Shown here: in pieces, positions 42,341 through 62,508 of the stretch
Position numbering within the stretch: position 1 is the stretch's first letter
How the letters are laid out: each line of letters begins with the position of its first letter
Assembly (NCBI GenBank): GCA_963695095.1
Contig: CAVOFT010000001.1
Location: forward strand, 960,001-1,024,000
DNA length: 64,000 bases
Origin: an uncultured bacterium
GTDB taxonomy: Bacteria; Krumholzibacteriota; Krumholzibacteriia; JACNKJ01
Direction of reading: 5' to 3'
Notes under the pieces: generated by a model
Databases searched by the model: none
Told to the model about the DNA's origin: nothing
The model's input: only the letters and a program-made list of their open reading frames with translations
Program-made: the position numbers and the translations under genes

Positions 42341-43665
42341 TCCTTGATCTTCTTGTAGAGCGTGGATTCGGCGATGTCGAGGCTCTTGGCAGCGCGCCGC
42401 CGGCTGCCGCCGCACTGCGCCAGCCGCCGCGCGATGGCCTCGCGCTCGACCTCGGCCAGGGTGAGCCCGCCGTCGAGGAAGTCCGTGGCCACCCCGCGCG
42501 CTTCCGGCAGCAGGATGTCGTCGGCGGCGATCTGCGCGCCCTCGGCGTAGAAGACGGCCTGCTCGACCACGTGCCGCAGCTCGCGAATGTTGCCCGGCCA
42601 GCGGTGGGCCCTGAGCTTCGCGAGCGCCGCGGGCGCGAAGCGCAGGCCGCGCCCCTCGGGGTCGGCGCGCAGGAAGTGCTCGGCGAGCAGGGGGATGTCC
42701 TCGGGGATCTCGCGCAGGGCCGGCGTCTGCAGGGCGATGATGTTCAGGCGATGAAAGAGATCCTCGCGGAAGCGTCCCGCCGCGATTTCCTGCTCGAGCA
42801 CGCGGTTCGTGGCCGCCACGATGCGCAGGTCCACGCGGATCGGCGAGTTGCTGCCCAGGCGCTCGAACTCGCGCGTCTCGAGCACGCGCAGCAGGCGCGA
42901 TTGCAGCTCGAGGTCCATCTCGCCGATCTCGTCGAGGAAGAGCGTGCCGCCGTCGGCGGCCTCGAACTTGCCGGGGCGATCGCCCACCGCGCCCGTGAAG
43001 GCCCCGCGCACGTGCCCGAAGAGCTCGCTGCTCAGAAGCTCGCGGTTCAGCGCCGCGCAGTTGATGGCCACGAAGGGCCGCTTTGCCCGCGGCCCATGGC
43101 GGTGGATGGCCCGCGCCACCAGCTCCTTGCCCGTGCCCGTCTCGCCGCGGATGAGCACCGTCTTCGCCGAGGGCCCCAGCTTGCGGCACTTGCTGCGCAG
43201 CAGCTCCACGGCGGCGCTGGAGCCCACCAGCTCCTCGCTGGCGGGCTCGAGGGCGACCTCGAGGCTGCGCGTCCGGCGCAGGAGCTGGCGGCGGCTGAGG
43301 GCCTGCTCCACGGCGAGCTCGAGCCGCGGGCCGAGCCCTCCGCGGGCGGGCTTTTCGAGAAAATCCAGCGCGCCGAGCTTGAGCGCCTCCACTGCCGCCT
43401 CCACGCTGCCGAAGGCGGTGATGAGCAGCGCGCTCACCTCGAGGCCCTCCTCGCCGAGCTTGCGCAGGAGGCCGAGGCCATCCAGGCGCGGCATGTTCAG
43501 ATCGGTGACGAGCAAGTCGAAGGGTTCGGCCTTCAGGCGGGCGAGGGCGTCCAGGCCGTCCACCGCCGTCTCCACGCGGTAGCCGCGCTCGACGAGCAGC
43601 TCCGCCATGTACTCGCGGTTGAGCTCCTCGTCGTCGACGAGCAGGATGCGGGGCGCTTCGGCCAT
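42328..43665 (-). CDS. Sigma-54-dependent response regulator (NtrC family)
   Basis: Receiver LVDDE/TDLNMP/KP; GETGTGKE, GAFTGA, LDEIGE, WPGNIREL; Fis-type HTH. Confidence 0.95.
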   Translation of the reverse strand: MAEAPRILLVDDEELNREYMAELLVERGYRVETAVDGLDALARLKAEPFDLLVTDLNMPRLDGLGLLRKLGEEGLEVSALLITAFGSVEAAVEALKLGALDFLEKPARGGLGPRLELAVEQALSRRQLLRRTRSLEVALEPASEELVGSSAAVELLRSKCRKLGPSAKTVLIRGETGTGKELVARAIHRHGPRAKRPFVAINCAALNRELLSSELFGHVRGAFTGAVGDRPGKFEAADGGTLFLDEIGEMDLELQSRLLRVLETREFERLGSNSPIRVDLRIVAATNRVLEQEIAAGRFREDLFHRLNIIALQTPALREIPEDIPLLAEHFLRADPEGRGLRFAPAALAKLRAHRWPGNIRELRHVVEQAVFYAEGAQIAADDILLPEARGVATDFLDGGLTLAEVEREAIARRLAQCGGSRRRAAKSLDIAESTLYKKIKDYAL

Positions 43666-54970: not shown

Positions 54971-57022
54971 ATGGCCCGTGCACTTTCGTCCCTCGCGACG
55001 CTCTTCGGATCGGCAAGCGGCGTCGTGCTGTTGGTTCTAACCAGCGCAGCGGCCTTCACGCTGCGTCTGGTCTATCTGCTGCCCCTGCGCGGCCAGGCGC
55101 TCTTCGACGAGCCGCACCGGGACTCGATCGAGTACGTCGATCGCGCGCGCGGCATCCTGGCCGGCGACTTCTGGGGCCGCGGCGTCTACTTCCACTCGGC
55201 GCCGCTGTACCCCTACTTCCTTGCCTTGGTGATGGGCCCGACCGGGGCCACCGGTCTCTGGTGGGTGCGCGTCGTGCAGGCCTTGCTGTCGGGGCTCACC
55301 GCCGGTCTGTTGGCGCTCACGGGCCGCCGCCTTTTCGGCCGCGCAGCCGGTGTCGCGACCGCCGCGCTCGCGGTGCTCTACGCCCCCTTCCTCTTCTATA
55401 GTGGCGAGCTGCTCGAGATCACGCTGACCCTCTTCTTCCTCGCCCTGCTGGCCTGGATCCTGGCGCGCGAGCAGCTCGCCGCGCGGCATCTCGTCGCGGC
55501 GGGGCTCTGCCTCGGTCTCGCCGCGCTCGGCAAGCCGAACCTGCTGATCTTGGCTCCCGTGGTGCTGGTGGCGCTGGGCTTCCTGCGGCCGCTGGCGCGG
55601 CCCGCGCGCTGGCCCTGGCGGCGAGGCCTGCTCTTCGCCGCAGGCATCGTCGTGGTCGTGGCGCCCTTCACCCTGCGCAACAAGCTGGTGGGCGACGACT
55701 GGGTGCTCATTAGCAGCAACGGTGGCATCAACCTGTTCATCGGCAACAACCCGCAGGCGACGGGCGGCTTCCAGGTGCCCACCGCCATGCAGTACGACCT
55801 CGAGCACTCGAGCCAGCGCGTCGCTGCGGAGGCCCTCGGCCACGCGGCGAAGCCCTCCGAGGCGAGCCGCTTCTGGGCGAGTCGAGCTTGGGCCTTCCTG
55901 ACCGAGCGGCCGGGGCAGGCGCTGAAGCTCGTCGTGCGCAAGGCGGGCCTGCTCATCGGCAGCTACGAGATTCCCAACCACTTCAACATCTACTTCTTTC
56001 GCGAGAACTTCGCGCCCGTGCTGCGCTGGCCGCTGGTCTGGTACACGCTGGCCCTGCCCTTCGGCGTGCTCGGCCTCGTCGCCGGACTGCGGCGCGGCCG
56101 CCGCAGCCGCCTGGCCGCGGCCTGCCTGCTGGCGATCGCCGCCACCGTGCTGCTCTTCTTCGTCACCAGCCGCTACCGGCTACCCCTGCTCATCTGGCTG
56201 CTGCCCTTTGCCGGCTACGGCCTGACGCTACTTGTGACGGCGCTGCGCGAGCGGCGCTGGCGCTTGATCGGCTTCTTGCTTGCGTTGCTCCTGGCGACCG
56301 GCGCGCTCATGCATCTGCCGCTGGTCAGGGCGAAGGACTTCCACGACGACTGGGAGACGCTGGCCTTCTACTGGGGCCGCCAGGGCGACTGGGACCGCGC
56401 GGCCTTCTACAACCAGCAGGCCCTGCGTGAGAACATGCGCTCGGCGGCGGCCTGGCAGAACCTGGGCTATGCCTACACGCAGCGAGGCCGCGACCTTGCG
56501 GACTGGGATCGCGCGGAGGAGTGCTTCTACAAGGCCATCGAGCTGGATCCCACCCTTGCGCATGCTTACGGCAATCTCGCCTTCGTCTATTTCACCTGGG
56601 ATCGGCCCGAGCTGTTTGCCGCCTGCCTGGATCGCGCGCTCCTGCTCGATCCGGCGCTCGCAGAGACCCTGGCAGAGATGGTCCGCTTCCGGGGCGCCAA
56701 GCTGAGTGGCTGGCGCGAGCGGGCCGAGCAGCAGCTCAGCGGCATCCGCGAGCGCCGGGCGGCGGCTCCCAACGATCCCTGGTTGATGATGGAGGAGGGC
56801 CGCATCCTGGGCATCCGCCTGGAGGATTACGCGGCCAGCCTGCAGATACTGAGCGGGATTCCCATGGCGACGCTGGCCGCGGACTCCGCGCTCACCGATC
56901 GCGTGTCGATGCTGCGCCAGCGCATCGAGCGGGCCGAGCGCTATGCGCCGCTGTTGAGCCGGCCCCTGCCGGGTGAGCGGCGCGCGCCGCTGCGTCCGCC
57001 GCTCAGCCTGCCGGCGCCCTGA
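54971..57022 (+). CDS. GT-C (ArnT/PMT, GT39-like) glycosyltransferase with C-terminal TPRs
   Basis: DSIEY, APLYPYFLA, multiple TMs, NGGINLFIGNNP, SRYRLP; TPRs AWQNLG and AYGNLA. Confidence 0.85.
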   Translation: MARALSSLATLFGSASGVVLLVLTSAAAFTLRLVYLLPLRGQALFDEPHRDSIEYVDRARGILAGDFWGRGVYFHSAPLYPYFLALVMGPTGATGLWWVRVVQALLSGLTAGLLALTGRRLFGRAAGVATAALAVLYAPFLFYSGELLEITLTLFFLALLAWILAREQLAARHLVAAGLCLGLAALGKPNLLILAPVVLVALGFLRPLARPARWPWRRGLLFAAGIVVVVAPFTLRNKLVGDDWVLISSNGGINLFIGNNPQATGGFQVPTAMQYDLEHSSQRVAAEALGHAAKPSEASRFWASRAWAFLTERPGQALKLVVRKAGLLIGSYEIPNHFNIYFFRENFAPVLRWPLVWYTLALPFGVLGLVAGLRRGRRSRLAAACLLAIAATVLLFFVTSRYRLPLLIWLLPFAGYGLTLLVTALRERRWRLIGFLLALLLATGALMHLPLVRAKDFHDDWETLAFYWGRQGDWDRAAFYNQQALRENMRSAAAWQNLGYAYTQRGRDLADWDRAEECFYKAIELDPTLAHAYGNLAFVYFTWDRPELFAACLDRALLLDPALAETLAEMVRFRGAKLSGWRERAEQQLSGIRERRAAAPNDPWLMMEEGRILGIRLEDYAASLQILSGIPMATLAADSALTDRVSMLRQRIERAERYAPLLSRPLPGERRAPLRPPLSLPAP

Positions 57023-57023
57023 G

Positions 57024-57575
57024 CTAGTCGGCGGCCTCGCTGCAGCGCTCGCTCTGGAAGCGGTAGAGGCGGCTGGCGGGATCCTGCCAGGCGGTGGGCG
57101 GCAAGAAGGCCTTTCCGCAGACTTCCGCGAGGAAGCGCTCCCTGTCCCAGCCCAGCTCGATAGGCACCTCCGGCAGCAGCAGCCCGCGCTGCCTTCCCCG
57201 CTCGATGATCAGGCCGTCCTCACCGAGGTGCAGATCGGCCACGTCCGCCAGCGGCTCGGGCGCGGTGAGCAGGCTGACGCCGATGTGCAGCGAGGGCAGC
57301 TCGCCCGCTTGCACGGGGGGGAAACGCGGGTCGCTGCCCGCGGCCTGCACTGCCATCTTCCGGAGGGTGGCGTCGAGGGAGTCCTGTCGCTCGAGCGTGC
57401 CGATGCAGCCGCGCAGGGCCTCGCCCTGCCGCAGCGTGACGAAGAGGCCGTCGACGGGGCGGTCCGCTTCCGGAGCCAGCGCCGGGCCGCCCTCCCGCCA
57501 GCTGGCGTCAGCGCACCAGCGCTCGAGGGTCCAGCGCGCCAGGGCCAGCAGCTGCGCGGCCAGTGGGGCTTCCAT
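57024..57575 (-). CDS. amrA: AmmeMemoRadiSam system protein A (AMMECR1 family)
   Basis: GLFVTL...LRGCIGT, DPRFPPV, GLLLPEV. Confidence 0.92.
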   Translation of the reverse strand: MEAPLAAQLLALARWTLERWCADASWREGGPALAPEADRPVDGLFVTLRQGEALRGCIGTLERQDSLDATLRKMAVQAAGSDPRFPPVQAGELPSLHIGVSLLTAPEPLADVADLHLGEDGLIIERGRQRGLLLPEVPIELGWDRERFLAEVCGKAFLPPTAWQDPASRLYRFQSERCSEAAD

Positions 57576-58076
57576 TCCGCACTCCTCCTTGGGCCGGCCA
57601 GGTCAGCCGGCCAGCCCAGGCTAGCATGGGGCCGCGATCCCGGCAGGGAGAAAGGCCGCGGCGGGAAGCGCGGAGCCGCTTCGGCCCCGACTCGCAACAG
57701 CCGGCGCGGCGCTGGGGGATTCCGCGCAGAGCGGGTGCGCTCACCCAGGGGGCCATCGAGGCGCGCGGGGGCGGGGGCCTTCCTCTCGCCCCGTCGCGCG
57801 GCGAACCGGGTGGCCGATCTCTGGGTGAACGCGCGCAGCTCGCGGCGGCAGGGCCGACGAAATGCCGGTCAGTCACGATTTTCCCCGCGATTCACCGGCC
57901 CCGATGATGCGGATTCCAACGCTATAATCCATTGTGGTTGTTGTGTTAGGTGCATCCAACGCAGGCTGCAAGGCCACGAACCCGCCCCTGGGGGCCGGTC
58001 CAGGCCGCGGCGCCTGGCATGGGATCCAGCCATGCACTGCCCTCCGTGAACTGAACAAACACAAGGAGTGGCAGTG

Positions 58077-58223
58077 ATGAAGAGCCTGACCCTTACTCTC
58101 TGGATCGTACTTGTCTCCCTGATCGGCTTCGGGTCCCTCAGAACGGCGAACGGGGTCGCCGCGGCGGTGCAGTTCGACGAGATTACCCAGCCGAGTGACG
58201 ACGCGGGCAAACCCAATCCCTAA
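58077..58223 (+). CDS. Small secreted peptide, 48 aa (not in ORF track)
   Basis: AAGGAG RBS; MKSLTLTLWIVLVSLIGFGSLRTANGVAAAVQFDEITQPSDDAGKPNP*; followed by a terminator. Confidence 0.7.
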   Translation: MKSLTLTLWIVLVSLIGFGSLRTANGVAAAVQFDEITQPSDDAGKPNP

Positions 58224-58267
58224 TCCCTTCATCACGCCGAGTTCAGTTCCTCCTCTCCTGTCGCGCT

Positions 58268-58293
58268 GGGCCCCGTCTTGACGGGGCCCTTTT
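58268..58293 (+). terminator. Rho-independent terminator after the peptide gene
   Basis: gggccccgtc-tt-gacggggccc-tttt; its apex also reads TTGACG-18 bp-TAGGCT, a possible promoter for the kinase. Confidence 0.7.
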
Positions 58294-58335
58294 CGCACGG
58301 CTAGGCTCGCAGCAACCGCCTCCCCGGAGCTAGCC

Positions 58336-61300
58336 ATGGCCGCAGCCGCGCCCACACCGCCCCGCGATCGCCTCATTGCGGAAGGGGCCACGGCACGAGT
58401 CTTCGTCTCGAGAGATTCGACTGGACGGCCGGCGGCACTCAAGCTGAGCCGCAGCGCTGCCTGCGATGCGGCCCTGATCGCTGAAGCGGACGCAGCGACG
58501 CGTTTCAGCCACCCCGCACTACTTCCCATCCTGGGGCATGGCATTGATCGAGATGGCCGCACCTGGCTGCTTCTCCCTCTGCTATCCGGCAAGACGCTGG
58601 AAGATTGGGGTCCTTCGCCGGCTGCGCTGCTCGATGGCCTCGGACCCATCGCGGACGCTCTCGACTACATTCACCATCTCGGCTACGGGCACGCGGATCT
58701 CAAGCCAAGCAACCTGTTGCTGGCGCAGGAGGGCCACGAGGCCAGGCTGCTCTTGGCGGACCTTGGGCTCATCAGTGAGCTGGGCAAGCCCGCACCGGGC
58801 GGAACACCAGCCTACCTCTCTCCAGCACGGCTGGATGGCAACTCCCTCTCCTGGCGCGACGATCTGCATGCTCTTGCGGTCCTCGTCTACGAGCGCATTG
58901 CAGGGCAGATGCCTTGGCATGCCGTGGAGGGGGAGGCCCTCCTGCAGGATATCCGACTCGGGCGGGTGCGCTCCCTGCGTTCACGTCGACCCGATCTGCC
59001 AGGCACGATGGAGTCCCTTCTTGTGGCCACGCTTCAGGGAAAGGACGGGACGCACAGTGTCGCAGATTGGTTGGATCACTTGAGGGCAGAGCTCGGCCTC
59101 AGGCCCCTGCCCCGCAGGCTCTTCCTCCGCCCCGCGGCGAGCCAAGAGGAGGACATTTCCAGCCGTGAGCGCTTGGCTGCATGGTTGCGTACCCACCTGT
59201 ACTCATCGACCAGTCCTGCTGTCGGCGTTGGTCGTGAGGAATTGCGCAGCCTGGAGGAGCTGGCTCGTGGTGATGCAAGACGCCTTCGCAACCTGCTCGA
59301 TCATCTCCTCGCAGAACAGCATCTTCAGGATCAATCCGGCCAAGCAATCTTTGCAGGCGATCCGACCGAATTGCTCGATCGCCTTCGGGCGCAAGTCCCC
59401 GCTGCCTCCGACGAACCGACACAGTCTGGCCATCAGTGGGAGCGACTGCTCACCGCGCTGCCCATGGCCTTCTCAAGGGGGGATCTGCTGTCGGATGCCG
59501 AATCCAAGATCGAAGGGCTGGAGACGACCATATTCGACCTCCTGGAGCGTGGTCTATTGAGCGAGGCCGAAGAGGGACGCTTCGAGGCGCAGGGCATCGT
59601 GGACCTCCATGCCGCTGCAAGCAGCTCGCTTCCCCTTCCACGTGCGCTCTTCGCATCCCAATGGCAGGCTGCCGAATCCCGTCCCGGAGCACGGCTCCAG
59701 CTTCTCGCCCTCGCCCATGCGACGAATGCGCACTGCCTCATTGACTCGATTCCGCAGAACGCAATGCTCGATGTGGTTGAACGAGCTCCCGGCTGAGGTC
59801 TGCGATGCAGTGCGGGCTTTTCTAAGCGGACGGCCGACCGGCACACCTGGAACGAGGCTGTTGGGACTGCTTGATGTCGTGCGCCTTGTGCGGACGGACC
59901 AGCTTGCTGGTGCAATCGATCGCTTCTGGACCATCGATGAGACTCTGAACACCGCCACCAGCGCGGCATTGAACCGTTACCTGGTATACCAGTTGAGCGA
60001 TTCAGGTCGCGTTCAGGACGCCCGCTCCTTTCTGATGCGGTGGCGTGCGCGGCGGGATGACGAGATCAAGGGGACGCCGACAGAGATCCAGATCGCGGCC
60101 CGTGAGCTGAACATCCTTGGCACCTACGGTGCCCATGCAGAGGCGAGAGACTCGCCGCCACCTATCAACGGCGCTTCGCTGGACGCGAGGGTGCTTGGAT
60201 TCTTAATATCGCGCTTGCCAGCCTTGCGGAAGATCGCGGCGACCGGGCAGAAGCCCTGCGTCAGTCGGAGGCGGCGCTGGGCCAGATGAAGCCCGGTCCT
60301 GAGACCGCACAGCTCGAACTCGATCTTCTCGTCTACATGGCTACGACGGTCATCTCCGCGAGCGATCGGTCGCGCTGGCGATTGCTCGATGGCATATTCG
60401 ATCGCGCCTCAGAGCTGGCAGCGACTCTGGACATTCCCACCTACTCTCATCGGCTAGAAGCCGCCGTCGTTCTCAGAGCCCTTTACCGTGGGGACCTTGC
60501 AGAAGCCCGGAGCCAGACAGAGCGTCTGCGGAGATCTGCTGAACGAACCGGCGAACTGAAGCGAGCGCTGTACATCGAAACCAATCTCGCTATCATTGCC
60601 CGCGAGTCCGGAGACTATGTCGAACTGCGGCGCACTTGTTCCAGGCTAGAAGATCTCATCCAAGGCCAAGAGTCGGTCCGGCAGCATCTCAGCTACAGGG
60701 ATGAGATTGCTTGGCTCGAGCTCGCAGCAGGGGAGCTCGACGCTGCAGAACGGACGACAGAACTGGGCCTTTCTGCCACTGCGGACTCGGAGCTTCACCT
60801 CTTCCGAGGGCTCTTCCTCGGCATCAGTGGCCGCCTGCGCCACCTGGCCGGGGACAAGCCGGAGGCGATAGCGGCTTTCCGTGCAGCAATCGATGCCTTC
60901 GAAAGTACCTATGCACTGAGATATCGCAATGAACACCAACTTGAGCTAATCGCCGTCGATCCTGCGGCAGACCCCGATGGCGCCCTGATCGCCGCCGTGA
61001 TCGACCACGAAGACGCCGTCGGCGAGCGCCGCCTCCTGCCGCGCGCCTGGCAGCTCGAAGCACGCCGGCTCCGGCGGGCGGGGGCCATCCACGATGCGGC
61101 ACTGGCGCTCGAAGAGGCCTTCCGCATCGCCGGCACCTTGGTGAGCCCGGAGCATCGCTGGCCTTTGCACGTGGAGGCGGCTGAGCTGGCGCTCGCGGCC
61201 GGCGAGCGCGGCGCAGCGCGCGCCGAGCTGGAGCGCGCCGTCGAGATCCTCCACGACCTCTCCCTGCAGTTCATCGAGGCGGCGGTGCGCGAGCGCTTCC

Positions 61301-61356
61301 TGGCGCGGCCGGACCGGCGCGCGGTCCTCACGCGCCTGCGGGCCCTGGACGCCTAG
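58336..61356 (+). CDS. Protein kinase - degenerate helical region - TPR-like protein; frameshifts near 59775 and 60148
   Basis: AEGATARV, ALK, HADLKPSN, ADLG, GTPAYLSPA; three ORFs join into one frame; TPR-like helices at the C-terminus. Confidence 0.75.
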
Positions 61357-61455
61357 CAGATGTCTTGAGGATTCGCGGGTCCTCGATTATCATGCCGCCG
61401 ATCGCGCAGCGGCGGCGGGGCCGTACGGCGGCGCGAGCGACCCCAAAGGAGGATC

Positions 61456-62508
61456 ATGGCTCAGAGCACCAAGGACATCCTCGGCGGCGACCCCGAGGGC
61501 CTGCTCACGCACATCTGCAAGACCATCCCCAAGGACCAGCTCCATCTGCCTGGCGCCGACTTCGTCGATCGCATCTTCGCGCCCAGCGATCGCAACAACC
61601 GTGTGATCGGCAATCTGGAATGGCTCTTTCAGCATGGCCGCCTGGCCGGAACCGGCTATCTGTCCATCCTGCCCGTCGATCAGGGCATCGAACACACGGC
61701 GGGCGCCTCCTTCGCGCCGAACCCGATCTACTTTGACCCCGAGAGCATCGTCAAGCTCGCCATCGAAGGCGGCTGCAACGCGGTGGCCTCCACGCTCGGC
61801 GTGCTGGGCGCCGTCGCCCGCCGCTATGCCCACAAGATCCCCTTCGTGGTCAAGTTCAACCACAACGAGCTGCTCACCTATCCGACCAAGTACGATCAGC
61901 GCCTCTTCGCCAGCGTCGAGCAGGCCTACGACATGGGGGCGGCCGCTGTCGGCGCCACCATCTACTTCGGCTCGGAGGAGTCAGGGCGGCAGATCGAGGA
62001 AGTCTCCGAGGCCTTTGCGCACGCACATGAGCTCGGCCTGGCCACCATCCTCTGGTGCTATCTGCGCAACAACGCCTTCAACAAGGGCGGCACCGACTAC
62101 CATGTCGCCGCAGATACCACCGCGCAGGCCAACCATCTCGGCGTCACGATTCAGGCCGACATCATCAAGCAGAAGCTGCCGGAGAACAACGGCGGCTTCA
62201 AGGCGATCGGCTTCGGCAAGAGCCACCCGGCCATGTACGGCCAGCTCTGCACGGACAACCCCATCGACCTCTGCCGCTGGCAGGTGGCGAACTGCTACAT
62301 GGGTCGCATGGGGCTGATCAACTCGGGCGGCGCTTCGGGCGACAACGACTTCGCCGAGGCCGTGCGCACGGCCGTCATCAACAAGCGCGCCGGCGGCATG
62401 GGGCTGATCTCGGGCCGCAAGGCGTTCCAGCGGCCCATGGCCGAGGGCGCCAAGCTGCTGCACGCCATCCAGGACGTCTACCTGGACAAGAGCGTCACCG
62501 TAGCCTAG
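61456..62508 (+). CDS. fbaB: Class I fructose-bisphosphate aldolase (DhnA type)
   Basis: [38 protein letters not shown]. Confidence 0.96.

What the first reader, a model, noticed from the sequence alone, without database searches (positions are those of the whole stretch)
57900..61356. Uncalled secreted peptide paired with a kinase-TPR protein: candidate peptide-signalling module
Seen: a 48-aa ORF with AAGGAG RBS, an upstream TATAAT (57923), a basic-hydrophobic signal ending near VAAA and an acidic tail (VQFDEITQPSDDAGKPNP). It has its own terminator, whose apex doubles as a possible -35 for the next gene, a kinase of about 1000 aa with TPR-like helices. Both lie in one lower-GC patch. Known: propeptide plus TPR receptor is the logic of Rap-Phr and other RRNPP systems. 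Inference: an analogous system with a kinase output in a diderm candidate phylum. I know of no description of it.
Basis: partly seen in the sequence, partly recalled or inferred. Interest (0 to 1): 0.8.

Follow-up and report, generated by a model that had tools for sequence, protein, structure and literature searches.

The report
Hypervariable exported peptide beside kinase-TPR gene
A tiny gene for an exported peptide whose last few residues differ between near-identical strains always sits in front of a large cytoplasmic kinase with a repeat-domain tail, which looks like peptide cell-to-cell signalling of the Gram-positive kind in an uncultured double-membraned bacterium, though binding is not shown.

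Summary
The small ORF (58077-58223, 48 aa) is a real gene. A counterpart with a strong ribosome-binding site lies just upstream of the kinase in all 13 related loci examined. In 208 genomes of the phylum, peptide and kinase occur in the same 11; one relative lacks both.

New here:
1. The only invariant upstream columns are GG-N9-TGC, a sigma-54 -24/-12 signature.
2. The terminator hairpin is conserved, and its TTGACGG plus a TAnnnT-like box 17-18 nt later look like the kinase's own promoter.
3. The peptide's last 7-9 residues are a recombining hypervariable cassette on a G-x-L-x-P skeleton. Two near-identical contigs differ at 27 of about 1350 bases, 21 of them in 56 nt there.

The "1000-aa kinase" is one frame of 939-1094 aa in relatives. 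In this window it is split by a +1 and a -1 indel, probably assembly errors, because housekeeping genes nearby are broken the same way. The protein is an active-looking Hanks kinase, two winged-helix-like domains and a long TPR solenoid, with no membrane segment.

An RRNPP-like reading fits, but peptide-TPR binding is untested, and the pair is not an RRNPP member. The scan noted similar sigma-54-driven peptides beside kinase/TPR regulators on other DNA.

The parts
58020..58036 (+). Sigma-54-type -24/-12 element TGGGATCCAGCCATGCA (GG at 58022-58023, GC at 58034-58035), 42 nt before the peptide ATG
   Evidence: GG and TGC are the only invariant columns in the 260 nt upstream across 11 genomes. 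GG-N9-TGC(A/T) is present in 13 of 13 loci, 31-45 nt before the ATG. The genome has rpoN and at least 18 strong Sigma54_activat genes. Promoter function is inferred.
58063..58068 (+). Shine-Dalgarno AAGGAG of the peptide gene
   Evidence: AAGGAG, GGAGG or GGGAGG lies 5-10 nt before the ATG in 11 of 11 genomes.
58077..58223 (+). Small ORF, 48 aa plus stop: pre-peptide with an N-terminal Lys, a hydrophobic helix of about 19 residues, an A-x-A-like site (VAAA) and an acidic tail
   Evidence: Present in 13 of 13 loci. 31 database clusters of 46-94 aa. G009/G004 differ at 16 synonymous and 11 non-synonymous codons.
58194..58220 (+). Hypervariable C-terminal nonapeptide SDDAGKPNP (residues 40-48), after an invariant Pro39, with Gly44 and Pro48 fixed
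   Evidence: Among 14 same-type peptides, column entropy is 1.16 bits here against 0.37 for residues 1-33; there are 11 distinct tails, and heads and tails are reshuffled. The G000/G001 and G000/G002 identity profiles dip at the tail. The equivalent cassette in L079/L080 holds 21 of 27 differences.
58268..58293 (+). Intrinsic-terminator-like hairpin (9-10 bp G+C stem, CUUG/UU apex) plus TTTT
   Evidence: A hairpin with a T-run is present in 13 of 13 loci. Outer stem pairs change on both sides in G007 and G003. The 12-nt core is unique in the 3.64-Mb genome.
58278..58307 (+). Sigma-70-type promoter candidate for the kinase gene: -35 TTGACG (58278-58283), 18-nt spacer, -10 TAGGCT (58302-58307)
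   Evidence: TTGACGG is invariant in 13 of 13 loci, even where the left arm changes (L079, L080). A TAnnnT-like or AATACT box follows 17-18 nt later. Other places in the genome read TTGAC(A/G)-N17-TAGnnT. Function is inferred.
58336..59787 (+). Kinase-TPR gene, part 1 (frame 1): Hanks kinase domain (residues about 1-255) and two winged-helix-like domains; GGAG Shine-Dalgarno at 58326-58329. An extra base near 59788 leads to a stop at 59794-59796
   Evidence: Pkinase E = 5.8e-19 over residues 12-206. K36, E50, D121, N126 and D142 are invariant in 10 orthologues. Indel placed against G001. Domains taken from the AlphaFold2 model of the G001 orthologue.
59789..60150 (+). Kinase-TPR gene, part 2: homology continues in frame 2 (start of the TPR solenoid)
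   Evidence: tblastn with the G001 protein: residues 503-623 match 59789-60151 in another frame. The A2 profile matches C1:1019780-1020151 at E = 5e-41.
60151..61356 (+). Kinase-TPR gene, part 3 (back in frame 1): rest of the TPR solenoid and the conserved C-terminal motif, stop at 61354-61356
   Evidence: 79% identical to G001 over 356 aa.

Best explanation
This is a lineage-specific two-gene signalling module.

Gene 1 is read from a sigma-54-type promoter and ends at its own terminator. It encodes a 46-58 aa pre-peptide that the Sec machinery exports, probably with cleavage after an A-x-A-like site. The last 7-9 residues, on a fixed skeleton (Pro, then x-x-x-x-Gly-x-Leu/Pro-x-Pro at the C-terminus), form an allelic cassette that is swapped by recombination between strains. 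In other words, it behaves as a specificity determinant.

Gene 2 has its own sigma-70-type promoter, whose -35 box sits in the terminator hairpin. It encodes a soluble, catalytically intact-looking Hanks Ser/Thr kinase, followed by two winged-helix-like domains and a TPR solenoid of about 570 residues.

The most likely mechanism is inferred, not shown. The released peptide, or its C-terminal fragment, accumulates outside the cell, is taken up again (Opp-type binding proteins are encoded), and binds the TPR solenoid. This switches the kinase, so the output is protein phosphorylation rather than DNA binding or phosphatase activity.

Shown: both genes are real, they are strictly paired, the regulatory elements are conserved, the tail is hypervariable and recombining, and the large protein has the stated domain make-up. 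Inferred: export and cleavage, promoter function, re-import, peptide-TPR binding, and what the kinase phosphorylates.
For: - Pairing. The small ORF lies directly upstream of the orthologue in 13 of 13 loci (10 relatives, the window, and metagenome loci L079 and L080). The peptide profile A3 and the TPR profile A2 give strong hits in the same 11 of 208 phylum genomes. G010 has neither between the same flanking genes.
- It is translated. A Shine-Dalgarno sequence is present in 11 of 11 genomes. G009/G004 differ at 16 synonymous and 11 non-synonymous codons. There are 31 protein clusters of conserved length.
- Export-type head. K/R lies within the first 4 residues in 12 of 13 peptides, the hydrophobic peak is KD15 1.8-2.7, and the tails carry net charge -1 to -6.
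- Specificity-like tail. L079 and L080 differ at 27 of about 1350 aligned bases, 21 of them inside 56 nt covering codons 35-49 and 10 nt beyond. Among 14 same-type peptides there are 11 tails; entropy is 1.16 against 0.37 bits; three tails sit on heads differing at 5-7 sites, and three heads carry two tails. P39, G44 and P48 are fixed.
- Regulatory anatomy is conserved in 13 of 13 loci. rpoN and at least 18 enhancer-binding proteins are present.
- Receptor-like partner. The catalytic residues are invariant. There is no conserved hydrophobic segment. The AlphaFold2 model has mean pLDDT 87 and a TPR solenoid over residues 436-1007. Profile hits to TPR proteins include NprR and Rap, weakly.
- Two SBP_bac_5 genes are present.
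- The kinase-TPR evolves fast: 48-80% identity in the first TPR half among proteins whose peptide heads are nearly identical. The pairing there rests on contig length only.
- Unchecked scan notes describe the same theme on other DNA.
Against: - No test shows contact between the peptide and the TPR domain.
- The tail is predicted to be outside the cytoplasm while the kinase is inside, so an uptake step must be assumed in a double-membraned cell.
- All instances come from one bacterial family with conserved gene order, so co-occurrence amounts to roughly one gain and one loss.
- L080 ends after kinase residue 321, so I could not see whether the TPR differs where the tail differs. The first 321 residues are almost unchanged.
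- No two available kinases share a tail allele, so co-variation could not be tested.
- No hypervariable hotspot stood out in the TPR region in three close pairs. Only the second winged-helix region is consistently variable.
- Foldseek's best matches for the non-kinase part are generic TPR scaffolds (APC5, IFT-A, STAND-TPR 6mfv), not RRNPP receptors.
- The adjacent protein has no sigma-54 activator domain, so any feedback onto the peptide promoter needs an unidentified partner.
- In three genus-g3 peptides no A-x-A-like site is evident in two of the three (by eye).
- In this window the kinase frame is broken.
Confidence: 0.4

Rival explanations
1. The peptide is an exported or membrane-anchored envelope peptide under diversifying selection, for example kin recognition or interaction with a periplasmic or surface partner. 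The kinase-TPR is not its direct receptor. The two are linked only by inherited gene order, or indirectly through a membrane relay, as PknG is coupled to GlnX/GlnH.
For: Predicted N-in/C-out topology puts the tail outside the cell, while the kinase has no membrane segment. The hydrophobic stretch of about 19 residues is long enough for a signal anchor. All loci share gene order within one family. The two genes have separate promoter-like elements with a terminator between them. PknG, a soluble kinase with a TPR domain, receives its signal through a membrane protein (PMC8546545; search listing and start of the abstract only).
Against: The pair is never separated in 13 loci and is lost together in G010. 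The overlap of terminator and promoter is conserved to the base. No GlnX/GlnH-like or other membrane partner is encoded next to it; the neighbours are AMMECR1 or a GDPD-like gene upstream, and aldolase, a Fer4 protein or NrnA downstream. A long TPR solenoid beside a small peptide with a variable C-terminus is the layout of known peptide receptors.
Confidence: 0.3
2. This is a conflict or defence module. The fast-evolving, lower-GC kinase is an anti-phage or anti-competitor sensor, and the peptide is an accessory or toxin-like product.
For: The kinase domain matches PADLOC PD-T4-6 and mad6 kinase models (E to 5e-29, residues 12-252). The patch is lower in GC. The kinase-TPR diverges fast. Hypervariability is common at conflict loci.
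Against: The PADLOC matches cover only the generic kinase domain, and no other defence gene is adjacent. The locus sits at a fixed chromosomal position with conserved flanks rather than in a variable island. No immunity or transport gene accompanies the peptide.
Confidence: 0.08
3. The small ORF is a cis-acting leader or arrest peptide (SecM, MifM, VemP or TnaC style), whose translation or export status controls expression of the kinase gene.
For: It has an N-terminal export signal. The C-terminal residue is Pro before the stop in 11 of 13 peptides; that Pro-stop slows termination is recalled knowledge, not a call result. A conserved hairpin lies between the two genes.
Against: The hairpin starts 27-54 nt after the stop codon, out of reach of a ribosome at the stop. 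It is followed by a T-run and does not cover the kinase's Shine-Dalgarno sequence. The kinase has its own conserved -35/-10-like boxes. The residues before the final Pro are the most variable part of the peptide, the opposite of an arrest motif. The downstream gene is not a secretion component.
Confidence: 0.04
4. The peptide is a precursor of a modified peptide or bacteriocin (RiPP), and the kinase modifies it, as class III/IV lanthipeptide synthetases do.
For: A small peptide gene lies next to a kinase. There are weak NCBIfam matches of the kinase domain to LanKC and LanL models (E = 2e-4 to 2e-14, far below their cut-offs).
Against: The kinase domain is N-terminal, with no lyase or cyclase domain. 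Cys is present in 1 of 13 aligned peptides and in the G002-type variants among the further clusters. Two g3 tails have no Ser or Thr in the last 20 residues. A Sec-type head is unlike RiPP leaders. No transporter or immunity gene is adjacent.
Confidence: 0.04

Closest known systems
RRNPP(A) peptide quorum-sensing pairs of Bacillota (Rap-Phr, NprR-NprX, PlcR-PapR, AimR-AimP)
   Same: A small gene (here 46-58 aa) for a pre-peptide with a basic N-terminus and a long hydrophobic core lies directly beside a cytoplasmic TPR protein. The informative part is at the peptide's C-terminal end, and variable positions sit between fixed anchor residues. That Phr and AimP peptides have this layout is recalled, not from a call. 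The five-point signature is taken from PMC10075063 (passages).
   Different: The partner is 939-1094 aa, not 250-500. It carries a Hanks kinase and two winged-helix-like domains instead of an HTH or phosphatase output. The organism is labelled Krumholzibacteria or Latescibacteria in relatives' records, not Bacillota, and would need uptake across two membranes. The peptide promoter is sigma-54-type. There is no detectable specific homology to RRNPP receptors: NprR E about 1e-3 and RapH 0.015 among generic TPR hits, and none among the Foldseek top matches.
Pherotype (specificity-group) loci such as comQXP of Bacillus and agr of Staphylococcus
   Same: Divergent signal alleles sit in otherwise near-identical backgrounds, and the same allele appears on different backgrounds, which means recombination.
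   Different: Those systems use membrane histidine kinases and modified peptides. That comparison is recalled, not from a call. Here receptor co-diversification could not be tested.
PknG with GlnX/GlnH (Actinobacteria)
   Same: A soluble Hanks kinase with a C-terminal TPR domain that couples an extracytoplasmic signal to phosphorylation (PMC8546545; search listing and start of the abstract only).
   Different: No GlnX- or GlnH-like genes are adjacent. The TPR region is far longer. Winged-helix-like domains are present. A small peptide gene takes the place of a membrane sensor.
PknK / MalT-type STAND regulators (kinase or NTPase, then winged helix, then MalT-like TPR)
   Same: The domain order is kinase, winged helix, long TPR. 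There are weak TPR_MalT matches (18 bits against a cut-off of 45). Feature look-alikes of residues 256-1007 include WHD_MalT plus TPR_MalT clusters, which is a lead only. Foldseek matches a STAND-TPR protein, 6mfv.
   Different: No P-loop or NB-ARC or AAA_16 domain was found in 5 of 5 orthologues scanned. There is no LuxR HTH.
Scan notes on other genomes: sigma-54-driven small fast-evolving secreted peptides beside kinase/STAND/TPR/sigma-54-activator giants (e1-935384, e1-5230541, e1-3376150, e1-4359981, e1-5002188)
   Same: A -24/-12 promoter drives a tiny, fast-evolving exported peptide next to a large cytoplasmic kinase/TPR sensor, in a lower-GC block (unchecked AI notes).
   Different: Here the partner has no GAF, AAA+ sigma-54-activator or HTH_8 part, so it cannot itself fire the peptide promoter. 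No sequence look-alikes were indexed.

Membership tests
RRNPP quorum-sensing system (signature of PMC10075063) | Propeptide is small (10-100 aa) | tested here: met
   46-58 aa in 13 of 13 loci. 30 of 31 database clusters are 46-58 aa; the 94-aa one is an upstream-extended call.
RRNPP quorum-sensing system (signature of PMC10075063) | [quoted passage not shown] | tested here: inconclusive
   No signal-peptide predictor was available. K/R lies in the first 4 residues in 12 of 13 peptides, and the hydrophobic peak is KD15 1.8-2.7. By eye, an A/S/V-x-A site is present in about 10 of 13. A signal anchor is not excluded.
RRNPP quorum-sensing system (signature of PMC10075063) | Receptor is 250-500 aa long | tested here: not met
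   939-1094 aa in 10 orthologues.
RRNPP quorum-sensing system (signature of PMC10075063) | Receptor carries TPRs, C-terminal, that recognise the peptide | tested here: inconclusive
   A helical-repeat solenoid covers residues 436-1007 of the model. A Pfam TPR family is over its cut-off in 1 of 5 orthologues (TPR_12, 30.8 against 30.1). Peptide recognition was not tested.
RRNPP quorum-sensing system (signature of PMC10075063) | Propeptide and receptor genes are direct neighbours | tested here: met
   13 of 13 loci. In the window, 112 nt separate the peptide stop from the kinase ATG.
RRNPP quorum-sensing system (signature of PMC10075063) | Receptor is homologous to Rap/NprR/PlcR/PrgX/Rgg/AimR | tested here: not met
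   Only weak, generic TPR-level matches: NprR E = 2e-4 to 1e-3, RapH 0.015, RapI 0.025, all below Pins and kinesin light chain. No RRNPP chain appears among the listed Foldseek matches. Pfam RNPP_C was not hit.
Hanks-type (eukaryotic-like) Ser/Thr protein kinase | Pkinase domain with the catalytic Lys, alpha-C Glu, HxD-x4-N catalytic loop and DxG Mg-binding motif | tested here: met
   Pkinase E = 5.8e-19 in the window copy. K36, E50, H119, D121, K123, N126, D142 and G144 are invariant in 10 of 10. It is non-RD (HAD or HGD) with DLG. Foldseek matches kinases with TM-score up to 0.78 on the target. Activity was not tested.
STAND kinase (PknK/MalT-like) | P-loop NTPase (NB-ARC or AAA_16) between the effector and the winged-helix/TPR sensor | tested here: not met
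   No NTPase family at E <= 0.1 in 5 of 5 orthologues. TPR_MalT scores only 18 bits against 45.
PknG-GlnX-GlnH module | glnX (membrane) and glnH (binding protein) genes adjacent to the kinase | tested here: not met
   Neighbours are a PMT_2-TPR glycosyltransferase, AMMECR1 or a GDPD-like gene, DeoC aldolase, a Fer4_5 protein or NrnA.
Secretion-monitor arrest peptides (SecM/MifM/VemP) | Conserved C-terminal arrest motif, with a stalled ribosome opening a hairpin that hides the downstream Shine-Dalgarno sequence of a secretion gene | tested here: not met
   The tail is the most variable part. The hairpin lies 27-54 nt after the stop and is followed by a T-run. The downstream gene is a kinase with its own promoter-like boxes.
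Sigma-54-dependent promoter | GG at -24 and GC at -12, exactly 10 nt apart, in TGGCAC-N5-TTGCW context, plus an enhancer-binding protein | tested here: inconclusive
   GG-N10-GC is invariant in 13 of 13 loci, and the -12 box reads (C/A/G)TGC(A/T). The -24 box reads GGGAAC or GGGCGG, not TGGCAC. rpoN and the activators are present. The transcription start and the activator are unknown.

The most novel reading that the evidence does not exclude
This would be a peptide 'dialect' signalling system in a double-membraned candidate phylum. A sigma-54-driven, Sec-exported pheromone has a C-terminal 7-9-residue cassette that exists as recombining specificity alleles. After uptake it is read by a cytoplasmic kinase-winged-helix-TPR receptor, so the quorum signal is converted directly into Ser/Thr phosphorylation. 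Together with the related loci the scan noted in Eisenbacteria, Zixibacteria and Ignavibacteria, this would mean that RRNPP-style intracellular peptide sensing arose independently, or is far older, outside Bacillota.
Probability: 0.33. Interest if true: 0.85.

Novelty: new variant of a known kind. Interest (0 to 1): 0.68.

Why it matters
Intracellular sensing of secreted peptides by TPR receptors is treated as a trait of Bacillota and their mobile elements. The RRNPP detection paper restricts itself to gram-positive bacteria (PMC10075063, passages read).

A conserved pair in an uncultured FCB-type lineage, with strain-level recombining signal alleles and a kinase output, would widen both the taxonomic range and the output repertoire of peptide communication. 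It also gives a compact, testable system: a 9-residue synthetic peptide against one soluble protein.

Even if the kinase is not the receptor, three findings are new and concrete:
- the hypervariable cassette in an otherwise frozen small gene;
- the base-perfect overlap of terminator and promoter;
- a new kinase, winged-helix, TPR architecture known from only about 16 full-length sequence clusters among 1.84 billion representatives.

The frame breaks also warn that this assembly carries indel errors.

Tried and rejected
- Complex prediction, peptide alignment against residues 256-1007 of the G001 orthologue: no verdict, score 0.01 against a mark of 0.32, controls not run. I count this as neither for nor against binding.
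- The look-up of sequencing runs on 57900-60300: none was listed and no RNA holder was listed. The frameshifts and expression therefore could not be checked against reads, and read laying was not used.
- Rfam scan of 57000-61800 at E <= 1: no match.
- Consensus promoter/terminator scan of 57400-58500: 0 sites. The hairpin has only 4 T, and TAGGCT matches TATAAT at 3 of 6.
- Own-genome paralogues: none for the peptide, the middle part or the TPR part; about 9 other kinase domains.
- 'Kinase-TPR paralogues with small ORFs': the best non-family A2 hits in the phylum (20 regions fetched) are generic TPR proteins. Only 1 of 20 (G002:C5) has a kinase domain, so I did not pursue this.
- Pfam on 30 non-family representatives: TPR_12-rich CHAT, STAND and other proteins, with 1 kinase. 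No specific superfamily link.
- Genome-contig scan: 5 loci, all already held. Metagenome scan: 3 true relatives among 45 confirmed loci.
Not testable.
- Sliding identity along the kinase in three close pairs: no TPR hotspot.
- Canonical sigma-54 reading of the upstream TGGCAC: wrong spacing to the conserved TGC. The register GG(G/A)AAC-N5-CTGCA fits instead.
- ECF-type reading (GGAAC-N17-CGAA): rejected, because AAC is not kept in G000, G003 or genus g3, while GG and TGC are.
- timed out and was rerun on a smaller database. One search had a malformed search term and was rephrased. One search found the Atlas busy and was repeated.
- Foldseek with the whole model returned only kinases, so the non-kinase part was folded separately.

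Full report
**1. What is at the coordinates**

The window is G000:C1:960001-1024000 of a 3.64-Mb, 70.5% G+C, two-contig genome.

The small ORF and its surroundings read as follows (unless stated):
- The ORF runs from ATG 58077 to TAA 58221-58223 and encodes 48 aa.
- AAGGAG lies at 58063-58068.
- The peptide starts MK, continues with about 19 hydrophobic residues, then RTANGVAAA, then the acidic tail VQFDEITQPSDDAGKPNP.
- A hairpin of 9-10 bp G+C stem lies at 58268-58289 and is followed by TTTT. The 80-nt RNA context folds at -27.7 kcal/mol, z = -2.9, with 0 of 200 shuffles as stable.
- TTGACG sits at 58278-58283 and TAGGCT at 58302-58307.
- GGAG lies at 58326-58329, and the kinase ATG is at 58336.
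- G+C is 0.60-0.665 over about 57800-60800, against 0.70-0.775 just upstream.

Frame 1 stops at 59794-59796, and a second frame-1 ORF begins at 60286.

**2. The large gene and its frame breaks**

Relatives hold a single open frame. A search of 41 genomes, G000 included, with the C-terminal 356 aa found it in 10 of 11 same-family genomes, as open frames of 951-1157 aa.

Aligned to G001 (74% nucleotide identity), the window copy differs in three places:
- one extra base near 59788 (CCC against CC);
- one missing base near 60150;
- a 3-nt indel near 60855.

tblastn with the G001 protein follows the window in three pieces: 58282-59793, 59789-60151 in another frame, and 60151-61350.

I asked whether such breaks are peculiar to this gene. 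Among 35 relatives' ORFs with a coding-type GC3 pattern, 9 matched G000 in more than one frame. This count comes from G001 and G002, so several genes are counted twice, and the kinase itself fell below the GC3 filter. Four sites just beyond the window (window-style coordinates about 81762, 83011, 84293 and 89410) break conserved genes that are 79-90% identical. The first three break against both relatives. The fourth was seen against G001 only. I inspected all four. One of them reads like quinolinate synthase, judged by eye. An SBP_bac_5 gene is also split, at C1:3320833.

Indel errors in the assembly are therefore the more likely cause; I put it at about 0.75. No public reads could be listed to settle it.

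**3. What the large protein is**

- Pfam finds Pkinase (E = 5.8e-19, residues 12-206) and only weak TPR signal.
- In an alignment of 10 orthologues of 939-1094 aa, K36, E50, H119, D121, K123, N126, D142 and G144 are invariant. This is an intact-looking non-RD kinase with a DLG motif.
- No conserved hydrophobic segment exists. The highest 19-residue hydrophobicity is 1.1-1.8, at different places in different orthologues. The protein should be cytoplasmic.
- The AlphaFold2 model of the G001 orthologue has mean pLDDT 87.1. It shows the kinase at residues 1-255, two helix-helix-strand-strand units that I read as winged-helix-like at 277-355 and 364-420, and an unbroken helical-repeat solenoid at 436-1007.
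- Foldseek with the whole model returns kinases.
- Foldseek with residues 262-1007 returns generic TPR scaffolds such as APC5, IFT-A and TTC7, and a STAND-TPR protein, 6mfv.
- A profile search of PDB sequences gives Pins/LGN and kinesin light chain first. NprR (2e-4 to 1e-3) and Rap (0.015-0.025) score weakly.
- No P-loop domain is detected in 5 of 5 orthologues. Language-model look-alikes include WHD_MalT plus TPR_MalT clusters, which I treat as a lead only.
- PADLOC matches cover the kinase domain alone.

The family is small:
- In 1.84 billion representatives, about 16 full-length clusters and 6 fragments match end to end. After that, only multi-stretch generic TPR proteins match.
- In 208 genomes of the phylum, end-to-end matches above 680 bits occur in 10 genomes, and G000 matches in pieces. 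All 11 lie in family f1.

**4. The small gene is real and tied to the kinase**

In each of the 10 relatives, a 46-58 aa ORF lies directly upstream of the kinase, with a Shine-Dalgarno sequence 5-10 nt before its ATG. Two metagenome loci, L079 and L080, have it too. That makes 13 of 13 loci.

The peptide profile gives strong hits (E <= 8e-9), one per genome, in exactly the 11 genomes that hold the kinase. In the other 197 there are only four marginal hits (E about 2e-3 to 7e-3), all inside long frames. G010 is 96% complete. It has the same flanking genes, GDPD-like and NrnA-like, about 300 nt apart, with neither the peptide nor the kinase between them.

G009 and G004 differ at 16 synonymous and 11 non-synonymous codons, which fits selection on the protein. 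G000 and G001 differ at 5 and 16, with most changes in the tail.

The gene has been called before. 31 protein clusters exist, and some are named 'hypothetical protein' in NCBI records labelled Latescibacteria or Krumholzibacteria. An earlier scan note also calls this genome Krumholzibacteriota-type (unchecked).

All these instances come from one bacterial family with conserved gene order. The co-occurrence therefore reflects roughly one gain and one loss, not many independent events.

**5. Conserved control elements**

- *Upstream.* In the 260 nt upstream of the ATG, the only invariant columns across 11 genomes are GG and, nine columns later, TGC. All 13 loci carry GG-N9-TGC(A/T), with the GC 31-45 nt before the ATG. 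This is the -24/-12 spacing of sigma-54 promoters; the consensus is recalled. The genome encodes rpoN and at least 18 strong sigma-54 activator domains.
- *Downstream.* TTGACGG and the right arm of the hairpin are invariant in 13 of 13 loci. The outer stem pairs change on both sides in G007 and G003. In L079 and L080 the left arm has changed while TTGAC is kept.
- *The -10-like box.* TAGGCT, TAAGCT, TAGTAT, TAACCT, GATGCT or AATACT follows 17-18 nt later. Elsewhere in the genome, GTCTTGAC(A/G) is followed at about 17 nt by TAGnnT or TAGTAT in several places.
- The 12-nt hairpin core is unique in the genome.

My reading, which is inferred, is a terminator for the peptide gene whose apex and right arm double as the -35 box of a separate sigma-70-type promoter for the kinase.

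**6. The hypervariable tail**

This is the main new observation.

L079 and L080 are nearly identical over about 1350 aligned bases, with 27 differences. Of those, 21 fall within 56 nt that cover codons 35-49 of the peptide and 10 nt past the stop. At the background rate (6 differences in about 1290 nt), fewer than one difference is expected in 56 nt.

G006 is about 12% diverged from L079 and L080 elsewhere, yet it is identical to them over the Shine-Dalgarno sequence and the first 34 codons, and differs again in the tail. The G000/G001 and G000/G002 identity profiles also dip to 14 and 12 of 30 at the tail.

Among 14 peptides of the window's type:
- Mean column entropy is 0.37 bits for residues 1-33 and 1.16 for residues 40-48.
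- P39, G44 and P48 never change.
- There are 11 distinct tails.
- Three tails, including the window's SDDAGKPNP, occur on heads that differ at 5-7 positions.
- Three heads carry two different tails.

Heads and tails have therefore been reshuffled by recombination. Across genera the C-terminus keeps a G-x-L-x-P or P-G-P/P-G-L form.

Divergent alleles of a short C-terminal stretch, held on anchor residues and exchanged between backgrounds, is the behaviour of specificity determinants in peptide signalling. That comparison with pherotypes rests on recalled knowledge.

**7. How it most likely works, and the rivals**

The head has K/R within the first 4 residues in 12 of 13 peptides, a strongly hydrophobic segment (KD15 1.8-2.7), an A-x-A-like site in about 10 of 13 by eye, and an acidic tail. 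By the positive-inside rule this predicts export of the tail. Cleavage is plausible but untested, since no signal-peptide predictor was available.

The partner is cytoplasmic, so direct sensing needs re-uptake. Two Opp-type binding-protein genes exist, which makes uptake possible but does not show it.

I commit to an RRNPP-like scheme with a kinase output, at 0.4.

- The chief rival (0.3) is that the peptide acts in the envelope and the kinase is linked only by inherited gene order or through a relay, as PknG is.
- A leader or arrest-peptide role is unlikely. The hairpin lies 27-54 nt beyond the stop and is followed by a T-run, the kinase has its own promoter-like boxes, and the supposed arrest region is the most variable part.
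- A lanthipeptide-type role is unlikely. There is no lyase or cyclase domain, Cys is present in only 1 of the 13 aligned peptides, and two tails have no Ser or Thr.
- A defence role rests only on generic kinase matches.

**8. What could not be tested**

- Tail/TPR co-variation. L080 ends at kinase residue 321.
- No TPR hotspot stood out in three close pairs.
- The kinase-TPR proteins do diverge fast: 48-80% identity in the first TPR half and 33-58% in the winged-helix part, among proteins whose peptide heads are nearly identical.

**9. Comparison with what is known**

Against the five-point RRNPP signature of PMC10075063 (passages read):
- small propeptide: met;
- adjacency: met;
- TPRs: present structurally, but weak by HMM;
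- Sec export: not testable here;
- receptor length of 250-500 aa: not met.

There is no specific homology, and the organism is not a Bacillota member. So the pair may work like an RRNPP system but is not a member of that family.

Three answered literature searches gave no description of a secreted-peptide and Hanks-kinase-TPR pair:
- RRNPP / Hanks-type / tetratricopeptide;
- Krumholzibacteriota / Krumholzibacteria;
- signaling peptide / Gram-negative / Hanks / TPR domain / sigma-54.

I saw only listings and the starts of abstracts, apart from the passages of PMC10075063.

The scan itself has noted sigma-54-driven, fast-evolving secreted peptides beside kinase/TPR/sigma-54-activator giants in other candidate phyla (unchecked). 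The present pair looks like a leaner relative of that theme, without the activator part.

**10. Verdict**

- The module is real, conserved and undescribed as far as these searches reach.
- Its peptide carries a striking recombining specificity-like cassette.
- The receptor role of the kinase-TPR remains an inference.

Noticed in passing
G000:C1 about 1041762, 1043011, 1044293, 1049410 (17.8-25.4 kb beyond the window end) and C1:3320833: Conserved, high-GC3 genes are split between reading frames. One reads like quinolinate synthase by eye, and another is an SBP_bac_5 peptide-binding protein. The first three sites are split relative to both G001 and G002; the 1049410 site was seen against G001 only. 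The two-contig assembly seems to carry roughly one indel per 9 kb in this stretch, so any 'pseudogene' in it needs read support.
   Followed up: partly
window 58020-58036, and the same place in 12 related loci: A -24/-12 (sigma-54-type) element is the only invariant feature upstream of the peptide gene. The genome holds rpoN and at least 18 enhancer-binding proteins, two of them within 25 kb (window 42730-43230 on the minus strand, and about 3 kb past the window end). Which one acts here is unknown.
   Followed up: partly
L014 (G006), L079, L080: Shine-Dalgarno sequence plus the first 34 codons of the peptide gene: 112 nt are identical between G006 and the two metagenome contigs, with not even a synonymous change, although flanking DNA differs by about 12%. 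This points to recent gene conversion or to a constraint at the nucleotide level.
   Followed up: no
L015-L018 (genera g3 and g4), alignment A1 columns about 265-380: Orthologues in two genera carry about 100 extra residues between the kinase and the first winged-helix-like domain. By eye this looks like a decayed nucleotide-binding fold (a GG-R-R-E stretch, then hydrophobic residues ending in D). Pfam finds no NTPase there. It could be a relic of a STAND ancestor.
   Followed up: no
window 54971-57022 (+) and 57024-57575 (-): A PMT_2-type glycosyltransferase with C-terminal TPRs is kept one or two genes upstream of the module in all family members looked at. The gene between them is AMMECR1 in some genera and a GDPD-like gene in genus g3. 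No functional link was examined.
   Followed up: no
window 57576-58019: About 440 nt of very G+C-rich (up to 0.775) non-coding-looking DNA lies between AMMECR1 and the peptide promoter. It is poorly conserved in relatives and has no Rfam match.
   Followed up: partly
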